From NCBI GenBank assembly GCA_009914755.4, contig CP068257.2:34624001-34688000 (forward strand): a stretch of 64,000 nucleotides of DNA, read 5' to 3'. Within the stretch, counting starts at the first letter, position 1, and each line of letters opens with the position of its first letter. This DNA comes from the human T2T-CHM13v2.0 reference genome, Homo sapiens. The notes beneath the pieces are model-generated. The model was not told where the DNA came from. It did not search any database and worked only from the letters and a program-made list of their open reading frames with translations. Both the position numbers and the translations under genes were made by a program. This document shows, in pieces, positions 3,638 to 52,999 of this stretch.

Positions 3638-5267
3638 ATGACTTGCACCGTTGGTTTAACAGGAAGAAAACCTCTTTCAGAGAGGCATGCGCAGTGCCCG
3701 AGCCTCAGGAGAGCGGCTCTGAAGAGCACCTGCCTCTGAGCCAGTTCACCACAGTGGACCGTGAAGCCATTTGGGCCGAAGTGGAGAAGGAGCCCGAGAA
3801 GTACCCGCTGCGAGGCGAGCTGAGCGAGGAAGAGCTGCCCTACTACGTGGAGCTTCCAGACAGGACGGCCCACGGCGCCCCGGACAGCAGCGAGCACACC
3901 GAGTCTGCAGATACAAGCTCCGGCCACACGGACAGCGAGAACACGTCCTCCTTCTCCTCCCCTTCCCACGACCTGCAGGAGCTGAGCAACGAAGAGAACT
4001 GCTGTGCACCCATCCACATGGGGGGCAGGGCGTACCCCAAGCGCTCGGCCCTGCTGGCGGCCTTCCAGTCAGAAAGCTTCAAGGCTGGGGCCAAGTTAAG
4101 CCTGGTGCGGGTGGACTCGGACAAGACGCAGGCTTCTGAGTCGTTCTCCAGCGACGAGGAGGCGGACTTGGAGCTCCAGGCCCTCACCACATCCAGGCTG
4201 CTAAAGCAGCAGCGGGAAAGGCAGGAGGCCGTCGAGGCCTTGTTCAAGCACATCCTGCTCTACCTGCAGCCCTACGACTCTCGGCGGGTCCTCTATGCCT
4301 TCTCGGTGCTGGAGGCTGTGCTCAAAACCAACCCTAAGGAATTCATCGAGGCTGTGTCCAGGACTAGCATGGATACCAGCTCCACCGCGCACCTCAACCT
4401 CATCTCCAACCTCCTCGCTCGCCACCAGGAGGCCCTCATTGGCCAGAGTTTCTACGGAAAGCTCCAGACCCAGGTCCCCAACGTGTGCCCCCACTCTCTG
4501 CTCCTGGAGCTGCTCACCTACCTCTGCCTGAGCTTCCTGCGCTCCTACTACCCTTGCTATTTGAAGGTCTCGCACCGAGACATTCTCGGCAACCGGGACG
4601 TGCAGGTCAAAAGTGTCGAGGTTTTGATCAGGATAATGATGCAGCTGGTCTCAGTGGCCAAGTCTTCGGAAGGGAAGAACGTGGAGTTCATCCACAGCTT
4701 GCTGCAGAGGTGCAAAGTTCAGGAGTTTGTCCTGCTCTCCCTGTCGGCGTCCATGTACACGAGCCAGAAGCGCTACGGGCTGGCCACCGCCCACCACGGC
4801 AGGGCCCTGCCAGAGGACAGCCTCTTTGAGGAGAGTCTCATTAACTTGGGTCAGGACCAGATCTGGAGTGAGCACCCGCTGCAGATTGAGCTGCTGAAGC
4901 TGCTGCAGGTGCTGATTGTCTTGGAACACCACCTGGGTCGGGCCCATGAGGAGGCGGAAAACCAGCCCGACCTGTCCCGGGAGTGGCAGAGAGCCCTGAA
5001 CTTCCAGCAGGCCATCAGCGCCCTGCAGTACGTGCAGCCCCACCCCCTCACCTCCCAGGGTCTTCTGGTCTCTGCGGTGGTGAGGGGTCTGCAGCCCGCC
5101 TACGGTTACGGCATGCATCCGGCCTGGGTGAGCTTGGTCACGCATTCCTTGCCCTACTTCGGAAAGTCCCTGGGCTGGACGGTGACACCCTTTGTTGTCC
5201 AGATTTGCAAAAACTTGGATGACTTGGTCAAGCAGTATGAAAGCGAATCTGTGAAGCTCTCTGTCAG
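3638..5267 (+). CDS. DOP1B: Large internal coding exon of a Dopey/DOP1-family gene; begins in split-codon phase
   Basis: AG acceptor at 3636-3637 (ttttcag|AT). Uninterrupted frame across track ORF 3643..5304. Strong donor CAG|GTGCGT after 5267. Acidic Ser-rich segment followed by a conserved-looking helical region ([29 protein letters not shown]...). Frame links to all downstream exons. Gene symbol inferred (Dopey-like C-terminal region plus chr21-like neighbourhood); not verified by alignment. Confidence 0.85.
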
Positions 5268-5434
5268 GTGCGTTACGCTCCTTGTGACATCTTTATTGCT
5301 TTAGTGATGGTTTTTATAACGAATGACTGTTTTGCCACGGATGTGGATGTCGGTTGGAGGATAATTTCATCCCAATGAGAAGCCTGTTTAGCATTATCAA
5401 GAGGGGTAACAAGCAACTAAATGTTCTGATCCAT

Positions 5435-5487
5435 TATGTTATGTTATGTTATGTTATGTTATGTTATGTTATGTTATGTTATGTTAT
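5435..5487. repeat. (GTTAT)n pentanucleotide microsatellite, ~10 perfect units
   Basis: TTATGTTATGTTATG... run. Confidence 0.95.
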
Positions 5488-5768
5488 TTTTGAGACAGAG
5501 TCTCTGTCACCCAGGCTGGAGTGCAGTGGCATGACCTCAGCTCACTGCAACCTCTGCCTCCCAGGTTCAAACAATTCTCCTGTCTCAGCCTCCCGAGTAG
5601 CTGGGATTACAGGTGCCTACCGCCACATCTGGCTAATTTTTTGTATTTTAGTAGACACGGGGTTTCACCATGTTGCCCATGCTGGTCTTGAACTCCTGAG
5701 CTCAGGCAATCCCCCTGCCTCGGCCTCCCAAAGTGCTGGGGTGCTAGAGGGAGCCACTGCGCCCAGCC
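5488..5768 (-). mobile_element. Alu SINE (antisense), 5' end abuts (GTTAT)n
   Basis: Antisense Alu consensus; small deletion near the start. Confidence 0.9.
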
Positions 5769-6106
5769 CTGATCCTTTATTTCAAATCCGCACAGGTACC
5801 CAGTCTAGCTCAGTGTTGCAGGGCATGTCAGCTACTCTCTACTATTTTTGCAAAACAGAAATAAAAATGTGAATCATCTTCACAGAAATTCTAAAACATT
5901 GAAACCATTTTTCCAAAGTGACTATATGAATGTAAAATCACACAAAGGATGGTTAACATTATTATAATGATATTCTATGACGAGAGCTCCAGTTTATTTG
6001 GGATGGTGATCTCTCTCTAGTTCCTGTGTTTATATATAGGATTAGAAACCCTTATGGCCTCATTCTTTAAAAATTCTCAAACCAGTTTCTCTTTTCTTCA
6101 CCACAG

Positions 6107-6218
6107 CACAACCTCCAAGAGGGAAAACATTTCTCCAGATTATCCACTCACCCTTCTAGAAGGTCTAACGACCATTAGTCATTTTTGTCTTTTGGAACAA
6201 GCCAACCAAAACAAAAAG
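6107..6218 (+). CDS. DOP1B: Small coding exon (weakest of the model)
   Basis: Acceptor ccacag|CACAACC and donor AAAAAG|gtaaat. 112 nt, stop-free in the required frame ([37 protein letters not shown]). It converts the +2 phase left by exon 3638-5267 into phase 0, as required by the next exon. Confidence 0.5.
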
Positions 6219-6295
6219 GTAAATTTTTTTTTTTTCCTGAGTTCAAGGCAATTTTCATGTATTGTTTTGTCTTTGGGCTATGACTGTTTCAAATA

Positions 6296-6500
6296 AGTAA
6301 CGTATGTATGTAATGTCTGTAACTAATATGCGTATGGAGGTGATGCAAATGTGAATGCAAATATTACATAAGTCACGTACACACGTATGCAAATGCATGT
6401 GTGTTAGCAATGCAAGTGCCTACGCAAATGCATATGCAAATGCATGTATATAATTAACGCAAATGCATAAGTATGTATGTCAGCCATGCAAACATAGTTT
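6296..6500. repeat. Imperfect tandem / low-complexity region built from GCAAATGCATGTRT-like units
   Basis: Repeated ATGCAAATG, GCATGTGT and GTATGTATG motifs. Confidence 0.7.
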
Positions 6501-6970
6501 TCTTCCTGCTGGCACTCCCTGTGCCAGCCCTTGGCCCATTGTTCCATCAGTAGCCTGTGAGATAACTTATAAAGCCACTTGTTTGATTTTAGGCTTATAG
6601 TCATCTTTTTCCATGTATTTTTTACTTGCTATCATGGTGTTCATGAAATCTGAGTAGGCAGACATTTTAGCTGTTGGTTATTCTACCCTGTAGAATACCC
6701 TGGGATTAAGTCTTAGAATACATCTAACACTTTGGTTGAATGGTTGAAAAGTTTGTAATTTAGAACATCAGACTCACAGCTGTCTCTGTGAAAGAGAACC
6801 ATGGGTTGAAATGCACAGAGAAGCTTATTGCTCCCAGACCACCACATGTATGAGTTGCTTAGAAGAGAGTCCAACAGCCCAGACCTAATCCCGCTAGCAC
6901 TGCTGCCCTCGTGGGAAGAAAAACCATTCCACAGACACAGCCTGCCTCATGTATTCATTTTAATTTTTAG

Positions 6971-51470: not shown

Positions 51471-51499
51471 GCTTTTCTTTTTAAAAATTATATTCATGA

Positions 51500-51776
51500 G
51501 GCTGGTAATCCCAGCATTTTGGGAGGCCGAGGTGGGCAGATCGCCTGAGGTCAGGAGTTCAAGACCAACCTGGCAAATATGGTGAAACTCCATCTCTACA
51601 AAAATACAAAAATTAGCTGGTCATGGTGACCGGTACCTGTAATCCCAGCTACTCAGGAAGCTGAGGCAAGAGAATCGCTTGAACCCGGGAGACAGAGGTT
51701 GCAGTGAGCCAAGATCACGCTGCTGCACTCCAGCCTGGGCGACAGAGCAAGACTCTGTCTCAAAAAAAAAAAAAAG
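51500..51776 (+). mobile_element. Alu SINE (sense), ~100 bp upstream of the terminal exon
   Basis: GAGGCTGGTAATCCCAGCATTTTGGGAGGCCGAGG...polyA. Confidence 0.85.
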
Positions 51777-51874
51777 GACCTTATTTCTTAGGTTTTGCCA
51801 CATGCATGTGCTTCCCAGCCATCTCGAGCCCTCAGTAAAACCATATCATTGTTATGGGTTTGTTTTTTCTGCAG

Positions 51875-52126
51875 GAAATCAGTAGCTCTGATGAGATCAC
51901 CATGAAGAGTGAATTCCCGCTTCTGCGCCAACATTCTGTTTCCAGCATCAGGCAGTTGATGCCATTCTTCATGACTCTAAATGGTGCATTTAAGACCCAG
52001 AGACAGCTGCCTGCTGATAGCCCAGGAACTCCATTCTTGGACTTTCCTGTCACAGATAGCCCAAGGATCTTAAAACAACTGGAAGAATGCATCGAATATG
52101 ATTTTCTGGAACATCCAGAATGTTAA
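51875..52126 (+). CDS. DOP1B: Terminal coding exon ending in a TAA stop
   Basis: Acceptor ttctgcag|GAAATC. Frame [83 protein letters not shown]. Stop at 52124-52126 (matches ORF 51854..52126). Confidence 0.85.
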
Positions 52127-52256
52127 CCATGTGAGAGAGAATATGTTTAATCCATGTATTGGTACTTTACTGAAAACCAGGTTATATTCTAAAGAAGAAA
52201 GAAGGCAGGATAGTGCTTTTGAACAAGCCTATTTCCATTTTGAAAGTAGATTTCAG

Positions 52257-52547
52257 GCTAGGTGCGGTGGCTCACACCTGTAATCTCAGCACTTTGGGAG
52301 GCCAAGGCAGGCAGATCACTTGAGGTCAGGAGTTCGAGACCAGCCTGACCAACATGGTGAGACCCTGTCTCTACTAAAAATACAAAAATTAGCTGGGTGT
52401 GGTGGCGGCGCCTGTAATCCCAGCTACTTGGGAGGCTAAGGCATGAGAATTGCTTGAACCCAGGAGGTGGAGGCTGCAGTGAGCCGAGATCACGACACTG
52501 CACTCCAGCTGTGTGACAGAATGAGACCATCTCCAAAAAAAAAAAAA
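52257..52547 (+). mobile_element. Alu SINE (sense) within the 3'UTR, with perfect TSD AAAGTAGATTTCAG
   Basis: GGCTAGGTGCGGTGGCTCACACCTG...polyA. The direct repeat lies immediately before the Alu and after its polyA tail. Confidence 0.9.
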
Positions 52548-52654
52548 AGTAGATTTCAGATAATTTACTGTTCAGCAACAGGACACACCTCCCTAAATGC
52601 CTTGTAATATATTTGAATCTGATTCTGCATTTCTTCCTCAATTTATGTAATGAA

Positions 52655-52660
52655 AATAAA
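52655..52660 (+). promoter_or_regulatory. Candidate polyadenylation signal AATAAA
   Basis: First canonical AATAAA after the stop codon. ATTAAA alternative near 52800. Confidence 0.4.
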
Positions 52661-52999
52661 ATTAATATATCATCTAACAGTAGCACAAAATTTGTAATAT
52701 GAAGTAAAGTATGAAGATAATGAAGAAGTTGTTTTCTTTGTTGAAGCAGTTATATGGGTCTTTCTCAGTATATTTCTCTTTTCTCTAAAAGTTTAAACTT
52801 ATTAAAAGAATGTTATTTTTAACCTTTCACACAAATGTCCTTTAAAGTGCTTATTTTGGTACTCCATTTTAAAACGAAAATACATTGTTTTCTGAGGACA
52901 ATAATTGCCCCTTACCCATTCAGCAGAGGTAAGGTAACCTCAATGTATTCAAAGATAACCTCAATGTATTCAAACCTCGCACATTAAAAATTACATGTT

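What the first reader, a model, noticed from the sequence alone, without database searches (positions are those of the whole stretch)
3638..52685. 3' portion of a Dopey/DOP1-family gene (most likely DOP1B/DOPEY2) reconstructed as 18 phase-consistent exons
18 candidate exons on the plus strand each have AG/GT splice sites. Their codon phases are mutually consistent, and by manual count they stitch into about 3.7 kb of stop-free coding sequence (about 1,234 codons) ending at TAA 52124-52126.

The exon structure is one 1.6 kb exon, many small exons, and a C-terminal helical region with leucine-rich heptad-like segments. This structure and the protein motifs fit the Dopey family, which is membrane-trafficking related (yeast Dop1 homologs).

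The DOP1B call specifically rests on the neighbouring SRSF9 retrocopy and on the absence of a tail-to-tail overlapping gene; DOP1A overlaps PGM3 at its 3' end.

The weakest links are exon 6107-6218 and the exact donor of the large exon.
Basis: partly seen in the sequence, partly recalled or inferred. Interest (0 to 1): 0.5.

Follow-up and report, generated by a model that had tools for sequence, protein, structure and literature searches.

The report
3' half of the DOP1B gene

Summary
On the plus strand, 3638-52126 contains 19 exons, not 18. All have AG acceptors and all internal exons have GT donors. They splice in consistent phase into 3,830 nt, which is 1,275 codons plus the TAA at 52124-52126. 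An AATAAA at 52655 fits a transcript end near 52685.

The stitched protein covers Pfam's whole DOP1 TPR domain (E 2e-138) and DOP1_C (E 5e-37). All 18 junctions agree with spliced transcripts or gene models:
- J9-J18: two RNA-derived contigs, 99.5-100% identical in DNA to the window.
- J1-J4: an orthologous mammalian transcript.
- J5-J8: bird and whale proteins.

The gene is DOP1B, not DOP1A. In two separate trees it groups with DOP1B/dopey-2-named proteins in 100/100 bootstraps. It is 79-87% identical to DOP1B-named proteins and 59-65% to DOP1A-named ones, and it has the DOP1B-type four-residue deletion.

The SR-protein retrocopy downstream is real (minus strand, about 53355-54340). No other protein domain was found downstream. 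The leucine-heptad claim is not better than chance.

This is a known gene and of low interest.

The parts
3638..5267 (+). Exon 1 in the window (1,630 nt). The first base is codon position 2. It encodes an acidic, serine-rich linker and most of the DOP1 TPR domain.
   Evidence: The acceptor at 3638 is the only AG between the upstream stop (3628-3630) and the start of homology. Donor 5267 (CAG|gtgcgt) is fixed by the orthologous transcript L003, whose aligned block ends at 5267, and by P0188. Pfam TPR_DOP1 E 4e-124 for this exon alone. The in-frame alternative donor 5234 is used only by one bird gene model.
6107..6218 (+). Exon 2 (112 nt).
   Evidence: L003 aligns to 6104-6218 directly after 5267 and before 6969-7159. 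tblastn hits from bird and fish proteins. The junction peptide SVKLSV|STTSKRE aligns without gaps to P0188.
6971..7159 (+). Exon 3 (189 nt)
   Evidence: In genomic ORF hits from other mammals (P0190, P0192, P0193), similarity starts and stops exactly at these boundaries.
9756..9878 (+). Exon 4 (123 nt, 41 codons).
   Evidence: L003 block 9756-9878; junction scoring; reading frames.
12366..12503 (+). Exon 5 (138 nt)
   Evidence: L003 reads through this donor into the intron, and similarity to spliced proteins ends at ...GDE.
19248..19303 (+). Exon 6 (56 nt)
   Evidence: The bird transcript P0189 and the whale model P0107 continue ...GDE|KSPLVD....
22120..22224 (+). Exon 7 (105 nt)
   Evidence: P0189 and P0034 align without gaps across the junction.
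22322..22388 (+). Exon 8 (67 nt)
28598..28742 (+). Exon 9 (145 nt)
   Evidence: The same-species transcript contig L002 is 100% identical over 28388-28742 and then jumps to 35586.
35586..35665 (+). Exon 10 (80 nt)
   Evidence: L002 block, 100% identity.
36539..36648 (+). Exon 11 (110 nt)
   Evidence: L002 block, 100% identity.
36773..36919 (+). Exon 12 (147 nt). The acceptor is 36773, not 36791.
   Evidence: L002 block 36770-36919, 100% identity. The peptide ...[14 protein letters not shown] is present in P0100, P0101, P0103 and P0189.
38849..38910 (+). Exon 13 (62 nt)
   Evidence: L002 block 38849-38910, 100% identity.
40047..40175 (+). Exon 14 (129 nt, 43 codons).
   Evidence: L002 covers 40047-40274 and L001 covers 39965-40175. 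Exact junction peptides.
46578..46714 (+). Exon 15 (137 nt). It holds the hydrophobic heptad-like stretch.
   Evidence: L001 block, 100% identity; Pfam DOP1_C hit.
47321..47376 (+). Exon 16 (56 nt)
   Evidence: L001 block; exact junction peptide.
47610..47771 (+). Exon 17 (162 nt)
   Evidence: L001 block, 99.4% identity.
50659..50788 (+). Exon 18 (130 nt)
   Evidence: L001 block, 99.3% identity.
51875..52685 (+). Exon 19, the last exon. Coding sequence is 51875-52126, ending ...DFLEHPEC with TAA at 52124-52126. The 3' UTR follows, with AATAAA at 52655-52660. The cleavage site near 52685 is inferred.
   Evidence: L001 is 100% identical over 51874-52178. Stop codon and poly(A) signal. Gerbil dopey-2-like P0134 and P0100 have the same C-terminus.
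53355..54340 (-). Processed pseudogene of an SR splicing factor (SRSF9-like; probably SRSF9P1). It is a neighbour of the gene, not part of it.
   Evidence: An intronless broken frame with RRM_1 (E 5e-12). The closest solved chains are 1wg4 (131 bits over 74 residues) and SRSF1. The start codon is ATG→TTG, there is an internal deletion and a frameshift, and the copy ends in a degenerate A-rich tail.

Best explanation
The region is the 3' part of the protein-coding gene DOP1B (DOPEY2, C21orf5). It holds 19 consecutive exons on the plus strand, from a 1.63-kb exon to the terminal exon with its stop codon and 3' UTR. The species is a primate and almost certainly human.

Shown here: the exons are spliced at canonical GT-AG introns into an mRNA. 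That mRNA encodes the C-terminal 1,275 residues of the protein. These comprise an acidic, serine-rich linker, the complete DOP1 TPR (helical repeat) domain and the DOP1 C-terminal domain.

Taken from published experiments, not tested here: DOPEY2 associates with MON2 and the P4-ATPase flippase ATP9A on SNX3-retromer endosomes, and it self-associates. This mirrors the yeast Dop1-Mon2-Neo1 membrane-remodelling complex, which supports endosome-to-Golgi recycling.

Inferred: the part encoded in this window is a helical scaffold that contributes to those interactions. Which residues bind which partner is not known from this work.
For: Gene model:
- 19 exons, all AG/GT, phase-consistent, 1,275 codons with a single terminal stop.

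Transcript support:
- Contigs L001 and L002 from RNA-type assemblies match the window at 99.5-100% nucleotide identity. Their blocks break exactly at the boundaries of exons 9 to 19.
- Contig L003 is an orthologous mammalian transcript (85-92% identity over the exon blocks). It breaks exactly at 5267|6107, 6218|6971, 7159|9756 and 9878|12366.
- The bird transcript P0189 and the models P0034 and P0107 are colinear across exons 5-9.

Family:
- TPR_DOP1 E 1.9e-138 over profile positions 2-375 of 375.
- DOP1_C E 5.3e-37.

Paralogue:
- 100/100 bootstrap grouping with DOP1B-named sequences in two regions.
- Identity bands of 79-87% (DOP1B-named) against 59-65% (DOP1A-named).
- The window reads [13 protein letters not shown], like DOP1B-named proteins. 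DOP1A-named and invertebrate proteins read DLMTRVAVAQSSSLNLF.

Neighbourhood:
- An SR-protein retrocopy lies downstream.
- SRSF9P1, DOP1B and MORC3 are all listed in 21q22.12 (PMC12779367).

Function:
- PMC6137200 and PMC11137318.
Against: - No human reference sequence (Q9Y3R5, NM_005128, GRCh38) was available in these tools. 'Human' and the exon numbers within the full gene are therefore inferred.
- Junctions J5-J8 have only cross-species, protein-level support.
- The 3' end at about 52685 rests on a poly(A) signal only. The transcript contig stops at 52178.
- In human cells, knockdown of DOPEY2, or of DOPEY1 and DOPEY2 together, did not change Wntless levels (PMC6137200). The cellular requirement for the protein is therefore less clear than its complex membership.
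- DOP1_C is matched only over profile positions 5-323 of 431.
Confidence: 0.97

Rival explanations
1. The gene is the paralogue DOP1A (DOPEY1), not DOP1B.
For: Both paralogues share the TPR_DOP1 and DOP1_C domains and a similar exon layout. DOP1A-named proteins still align at 59-65% identity.
Against: - Trees separate the window from all seven DOP1A/dopey-1-named sequences in 100/100 bootstraps.
- Identity to DOP1B-named proteins is about 20 points higher.
- The window has the DOP1B-type deletion in DLMNMQSSS.
- No convergent coding gene was detected at the 3' end.
Confidence: 0.01
2. The region is a non-functional duplicate or unprocessed pseudogene of DOP1B, not the active gene.
For: I could not map the window to a reference genome, so uniqueness of the locus was not shown.
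Against: - The 1,275-codon frame is intact and all 37 splice sites are canonical.
- Spliced RNA contigs are 100% identical to this very sequence, including adjoining intron bases.
- Exon boundaries coincide with sharp drops in conservation in other mammals.
Confidence: 0.015
3. The apparent exons are chance open frames with chance AG/GT sites.
For: Individual splice-site scores are unremarkable. My crude scores for the real exons ranged from 0 to 6 and could not separate them from background.
Against: - Pfam E-values are 1e-138 and 5e-37.
- Colinear homology extends to fish, bird and mammal proteins.
- Transcripts match at nucleotide level.
Confidence: 0.001

Closest known systems
Human DOP1B (DOPEY2 / C21orf5), chromosome 21q22.12
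   Same: Same domain content (TPR_DOP1 and DOP1_C) and the same C-terminus ...DFLEHPEC as dopey-2-named mammalian proteins. It groups with DOP1B-named orthologues. It lies next to an SR-protein retrocopy, consistent with SRSF9P1, which a published table places in the same cytoband.
   Different: No difference was detected. Identity to the human reference could not be measured because that reference is not in the tools. Only the 3' 19 exons lie in the window. From memory, unverified: the full human gene has 37 exons and encodes 2,298 residues, which would make these exons 19-37.
DOP1A (DOPEY1), chromosome 6
   Same: Paralogue with the same Pfam domains and a similar C-terminal exon pattern. It also forms a complex with MON2 (PMC11137318).
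   Different: Only 59-65% identical over the shared C-terminal region. It has the ancestral TRVAVA-type insertion that is absent here. It forms a separate clade.
Yeast Dop1 / Aspergillus DopA / C. elegans PAD-1
   Same: Founding members of the Dopey family. Dop1 works with Mon2 and the flippase Neo1 in endosomal membrane remodelling (PMC6137200).
   Different: These are distant single-copy orthologues. They were not retrieved or aligned here. The leucine-zipper-like repeats described for DopA are not statistically evident in this protein.
SRSF9P1 (processed pseudogene of SRSF9)
   Same: The neighbour at about 53355-54340 (minus strand) is an intronless, disabled SR-protein copy with an RRM and an A-rich tail. 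SRSF9P1 is listed in 21q22.12 together with DOP1B.
   Different: The parent gene was not proven with tools. The best solved-structure match is 1wg4, an unnamed RIKEN mouse cDNA RRM, ahead of SRSF1 per residue. That 1wg4 is Srsf9 is my recollection only.

Membership tests
Dopey / DOP1 protein family | DOP1 TPR domain (Pfam PF24601) | tested here: met
   E 1.9e-138, 462 bits against a cut-off of 26.6, profile positions 2-375 of 375.
Dopey / DOP1 protein family | DOP1 C-terminal domain (Pfam PF24598) | tested here: met
   E 5.3e-37, 128 bits against a cut-off of 27.3, profile positions 5-323 of 431. The score rose from 50 bits once exons 14-19 were added.
Dopey / DOP1 protein family | N-terminal Dopey domain (Pfam PF04118) | not testable with these tools
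   It lies upstream of the window. No DOP1 exon was found in 1-3637.
Dopey / DOP1 protein family | C-terminal leucine-zipper-like heptad repeats (Pascon & Miller 2000, as cited in PMC11137318) | tested here: inconclusive
   There is no L-x6 run of four heptads. Three-heptad runs occur 5 times against 3.6 in shuffles. One relaxed hydrophobic heptad run lies in exon 15.
Dopey / DOP1 protein family | Physical association with MON2 and a Neo1/ATP9-type flippase | not testable with these tools
   Published for human DOPEY2 (PMC6137200). This is an experimental property.
DOP1B orthologue group (as opposed to DOP1A) | Groups with DOP1B-named proteins to the exclusion of DOP1A-named proteins | tested here: met
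   Neighbour-joining trees with Kimura distances. Exons 9-14: 17 sequences, 100/100. Exons 14-19: 11 sequences, 100/100.
DOP1B orthologue group (as opposed to DOP1A) | Paralogue-specific indel after ...F(K/R)DLM | tested here: met
   The window reads [13 protein letters not shown], the same pattern as killifish DOP1B ([13 protein letters not shown]) and gerbil dopey-2-like. The DOP1A-named proteins and the spider protein that cover this site carry extra residues (TRVAVAQSSS / SRVSVAQSGS).
DOP1B orthologue group (as opposed to DOP1A) | Genomic neighbourhood of human DOP1B (SRSF9P1 nearby; no convergent PGM3-like gene) | tested here: inconclusive
   The retrocopy is present. Sharing of the cytoband comes from the literature. 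No other domain was found downstream, but that scan misses exons shorter than about 50 codons, and adjacency in the reference was not checked.
DOP1B orthologue group (as opposed to DOP1A) | Near-identity to the human reference protein Q9Y3R5 | not testable with these tools
Substitutes used were contigs at 100% nucleotide identity and named orthologues.
Processed pseudogene (the neighbour at 53355-54340, minus strand) | Intronless copy of a spliced mRNA with a poly(A) remnant and disabling mutations | tested here: met
   RRM1, RRM2 and the RS tail are contiguous within about 640 nt. The start codon is ATG→TTG, about 47 residues are deleted, there is a frameshift, and the tail is A-rich at about 53355-53390.

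The most novel reading that the evidence does not exclude
Read-through of the exon 14 donor (40175) could mark a real truncated DOP1B isoform rather than unspliced pre-mRNA or projected annotation. The read-through is seen in the same-species contig L002. It is also seen in many database fragments of both DOP1A and DOP1B, from fish, birds and camel, that end just after '...PLIQ/PDIQ'. Such an isoform would lack the last roughly 245 residues, including the heptad-like region. A separate possibility is that the still CpG-island-like 5' end of the SR-protein retrocopy acts as a promoter.
Probability: 0.08. Interest if true: 0.2.

Novelty: already known. Interest (0 to 1): 0.05.

Why it matters
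The finding mainly validates the first-stage reading. A reader without tools correctly recognised the 3' half of a large, many-exon gene and the right paralogue. It also shows a typical failure: an internal exon whose length is a multiple of three can be dropped without breaking the frame. The gene itself is well known. It is a Down-syndrome-region candidate gene and a partner of MON2 and ATP9A in endosome-to-Golgi trafficking, so nothing new about its biology follows from this window.

Tried and rejected
- My crude position-weight scores for splice sites could not separate real exons from background. Real exons scored from 0 to 6. I dropped this approach in favour of homology and transcripts.
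- The PDB holds no DOP1 relative findable by sequence, either for the large exon at E ≤ 0.001 or for the C-terminal 468 residues at E ≤ 1, where only chance eIF3e hits appeared. No structure prediction was run, because the identification did not need it.
I replaced it with a scan of the ten longest non-repeat open frames.
- A first bootstrap tree script timed out. I rewrote it.
- A literature search for '1WG4', meant to tie that structure to SRSF9, found nothing.
- A search for a paper giving the DOPEY2 exon count found none.
- Alternative boundaries were considered and rejected. Donor 5234 is favoured only by one bird model and contradicted by L003 and P0188. Acceptor 36791 is contradicted by L002 and four transcript-derived proteins. 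An acceptor at 9731 is out of phase and is preceded by a stop.
- I looked for an upstream DOP1 exon in 1-3637 and found none.

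
Full report
**What the window is.**
The 64-kb window is Alu-rich DNA of primate type. By self-comparison, 44% of it lies in repeats with at least three other copies, and two Alu-derived borderline SRP hits appear in Rfam. The longest open stretch on the plus strand is 3631-5301 (557 codons). 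On its own it matches Pfam's DOP1 TPR domain with E 4e-124.

**Building the exon model independently.**
- A search with the large exon returned mostly single-exon ORFs. It also returned a few multi-exon eukaryotic models, notably a 938-residue bird protein, P0034.
- tblastn of P0034 and two fish proteins gave 13 colinear plus-strand blocks between 3637 and 38909.
- For each pair of neighbouring blocks I enumerated every GT/GC donor and AG acceptor that kept the frame, and scored the junction peptide against the reference.
- A second search, with the C-terminal part, returned transcript-derived proteins that are 98-99% identical to the window (P0103, P0112) and named orthologues.
- These located six further exons. 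Every junction reproduced the transcript-derived peptide exactly.

**The result.**
There are 19 exons:

| Exon | Coordinates | Exon | Coordinates |
|---|---|---|---|
| 1 | 3638-5267 | 11 | 36539-36648 |
| 2 | 6107-6218 | 12 | 36773-36919 |
| 3 | 6971-7159 | 13 | 38849-38910 |
| 4 | 9756-9878 | 14 | 40047-40175 |
| 5 | 12366-12503 | 15 | 46578-46714 |
| 6 | 19248-19303 | 16 | 47321-47376 |
| 7 | 22120-22224 | 17 | 47610-47771 |
| 8 | 22322-22388 | 18 | 50659-50788 |
| 9 | 28598-28742 | 19 | 51875-52126 (coding part) |
| 10 | 35586-35665 | | |

- All 19 acceptors are AG and all 18 donors are GT.
- The stitched sequence is 3,830 nt. It reads as 1,275 codons followed by the single stop TAA at 52124-52126.
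- No further DOP1 exon lies in 1-3637, so the window begins inside the intron upstream of the large exon.

**Transcript evidence.**
- *Exons 9-19.* The contigs that encode P0112 and P0103 were fetched as L001 and L002. They align to the window at 99.5-100% nucleotide identity, in blocks that break exactly at the boundaries of exons 9 to 19. Short stretches of adjoining intron lie at the contig ends, as expected for partly spliced RNA from this same locus. This settles the exon 12 acceptor as 36773 rather than 36791.
Its contig L003 is an orthologous transcript from another mammal. It aligns at 85-92% nucleotide identity over the exon blocks, which are 5074-5267, 6104-6218, 6969-7159 and 9756-9878, and then from 12364 onward. 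The donor of the large exon is therefore 5267, and exon 6107-6218 is included.
- *Exons 5-9.* Junctions J6-J8 align without gaps to a bird transcript (P0189) and the bird model P0034. J5 aligns with a one-residue indel nearby, with ...GDE|KSPLVD conserved in bird and whale.

The count of 18 exons and about 1,234 codons is one exon short. The shortfall of 41 codons equals exon 4 (9756-9878, 123 nt) exactly. Exon 14 (129 nt) is the other candidate. Either can be omitted without disturbing the frame.

**Family and paralogue.**
- The stitched protein matches TPR_DOP1 over the whole profile (E 1.9e-138) and DOP1_C (E 5.3e-37).
- Proteins that public sources name DOP1B or dopey-2 are 79-87% identical. 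Those named DOP1A or dopey-1 are 59-65% identical.
- In neighbour-joining trees of two non-overlapping regions, rooted on a spider protein, the window groups with the DOP1B-named sequences and excludes all DOP1A-named ones in 100 of 100 bootstraps each.
- The window also shares the DOP1B-type deletion (DLMNMQSSS...). DOP1A and invertebrate proteins read DLMTRVAVAQSSS... or SRVSVAQSGS....
- This is direct evidence for DOP1B.

**The neighbourhood arguments.**
- On the minus strand at about 53355-54340 lies an intronless, disabled copy of an SR splicing factor.
- It has an RRM_1 domain (E 5e-12). Its start codon is changed to TTG, about 47 residues are deleted, there is a frameshift, and it ends in a degenerate A-rich tail.
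- Its closest solved relatives are 1wg4, an unnamed mouse cDNA RRM (131 bits over 74 residues), and SRSF1. That 1wg4 is Srsf9 is my recollection and was not verified.
- A published gene table lists SRSF9P1, DOP1B and MORC3 all in 21q22.12 (PMC12779367).
- None of the other nine long non-repeat open frames scanned, on either strand between 50.8 and 64 kb, matches any Pfam family. This agrees with the absence of a convergent gene, but the test cannot see short exons.

**The heptad claim.**
There is no strict four-heptad leucine run. Three-heptad runs occur 5 times against 3.6 expected from shuffles. Only a relaxed hydrophobic heptad run in exon 15 remains.

**How it works.**
- *Shown here:* canonical splicing of 19 exons into an mRNA that encodes a helical-repeat C-terminal half.
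- *From the literature:* DOPEY2 co-precipitates MON2 and the flippase ATP9A, self-associates, and co-localises with them on SNX3-retromer endosomes. This parallels the yeast Dop1-Mon2-Neo1 complex (PMC6137200).
- *A caveat from the same paper:* DOPEY knockdown in human cells did not alter Wntless levels, although loss of the C. elegans orthologue did.
- *Also from the literature:* the gene is a Down-syndrome-region candidate (PMC3515604; PMC11137318).
- *Not addressed here:* which residues of this half bind which partner.

**Verdict.**
This is a correct identification of a known gene, with one exon missed and one weak supporting argument. Novelty: already known. Interest: low.

Noticed in passing
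window 17008-17113 (minus strand), inside DOP1B intron 5: A U13 snoRNA-like copy (Rfam RF01210, 86.4 bits against a gathering score of 46, full-length 1-104). The C box UGAUGA is intact, but the D box reads GUGA instead of CUGA. It is probably one of the many dispersed U13 pseudogene copies.
   Followed up: partly
window 53901-54600: The 5' part of the disabled SR-protein retrocopy is still CpG-island-like (GC up to 0.69, observed/expected CpG up to 1.11), despite a lost start codon, a deletion and a frameshift. This could reflect a young insertion or a lack of germline methylation. Promoter activity was not tested.
   Followed up: no
window 40176-40274 and 39965-40046; proteins P0108-P0111, P0119, P0123-P0125, P0128, P0131, P0132: Contig L002 reads 99 nt past the exon 14 donor, and L001 starts 82 nt inside intron 13. 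Many database fragments of both DOP1A and DOP1B from fish, birds and camel end by read-through at the homologous donor (...PLIQ/PDIQ followed by G and an unconserved tail). This is probably pre-mRNA or projected annotation, not a conserved isoform.
   Followed up: no
window 16183-16697: A roughly 500-bp imperfect (TAGA/TAGG)n microsatellite in intron 5. It gives the strongest GC skew in the window, up to 0.89.
   Followed up: no
window 5434-5487 and 47990-48030: A perfect (TTATG)x10.8 repeat just downstream of the large exon, and a perfect (GT)x20.5 repeat in intron 17.
   Followed up: no
window 5234 (alternative donor GCA|gtatga): An in-frame alternative donor lies 33 nt upstream of the used donor 5267. 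It would remove 11 residues ([11 protein letters not shown]...). One bird gene model (P0034) lacks the corresponding residues. The mammalian transcript L003 uses the 5267 equivalent.
   Followed up: partly
window 3601-4400: The 5' part of the large coding exon is CpG-rich for an internal exon (GC up to 0.64, observed/expected CpG up to 0.74).
   Followed up: no
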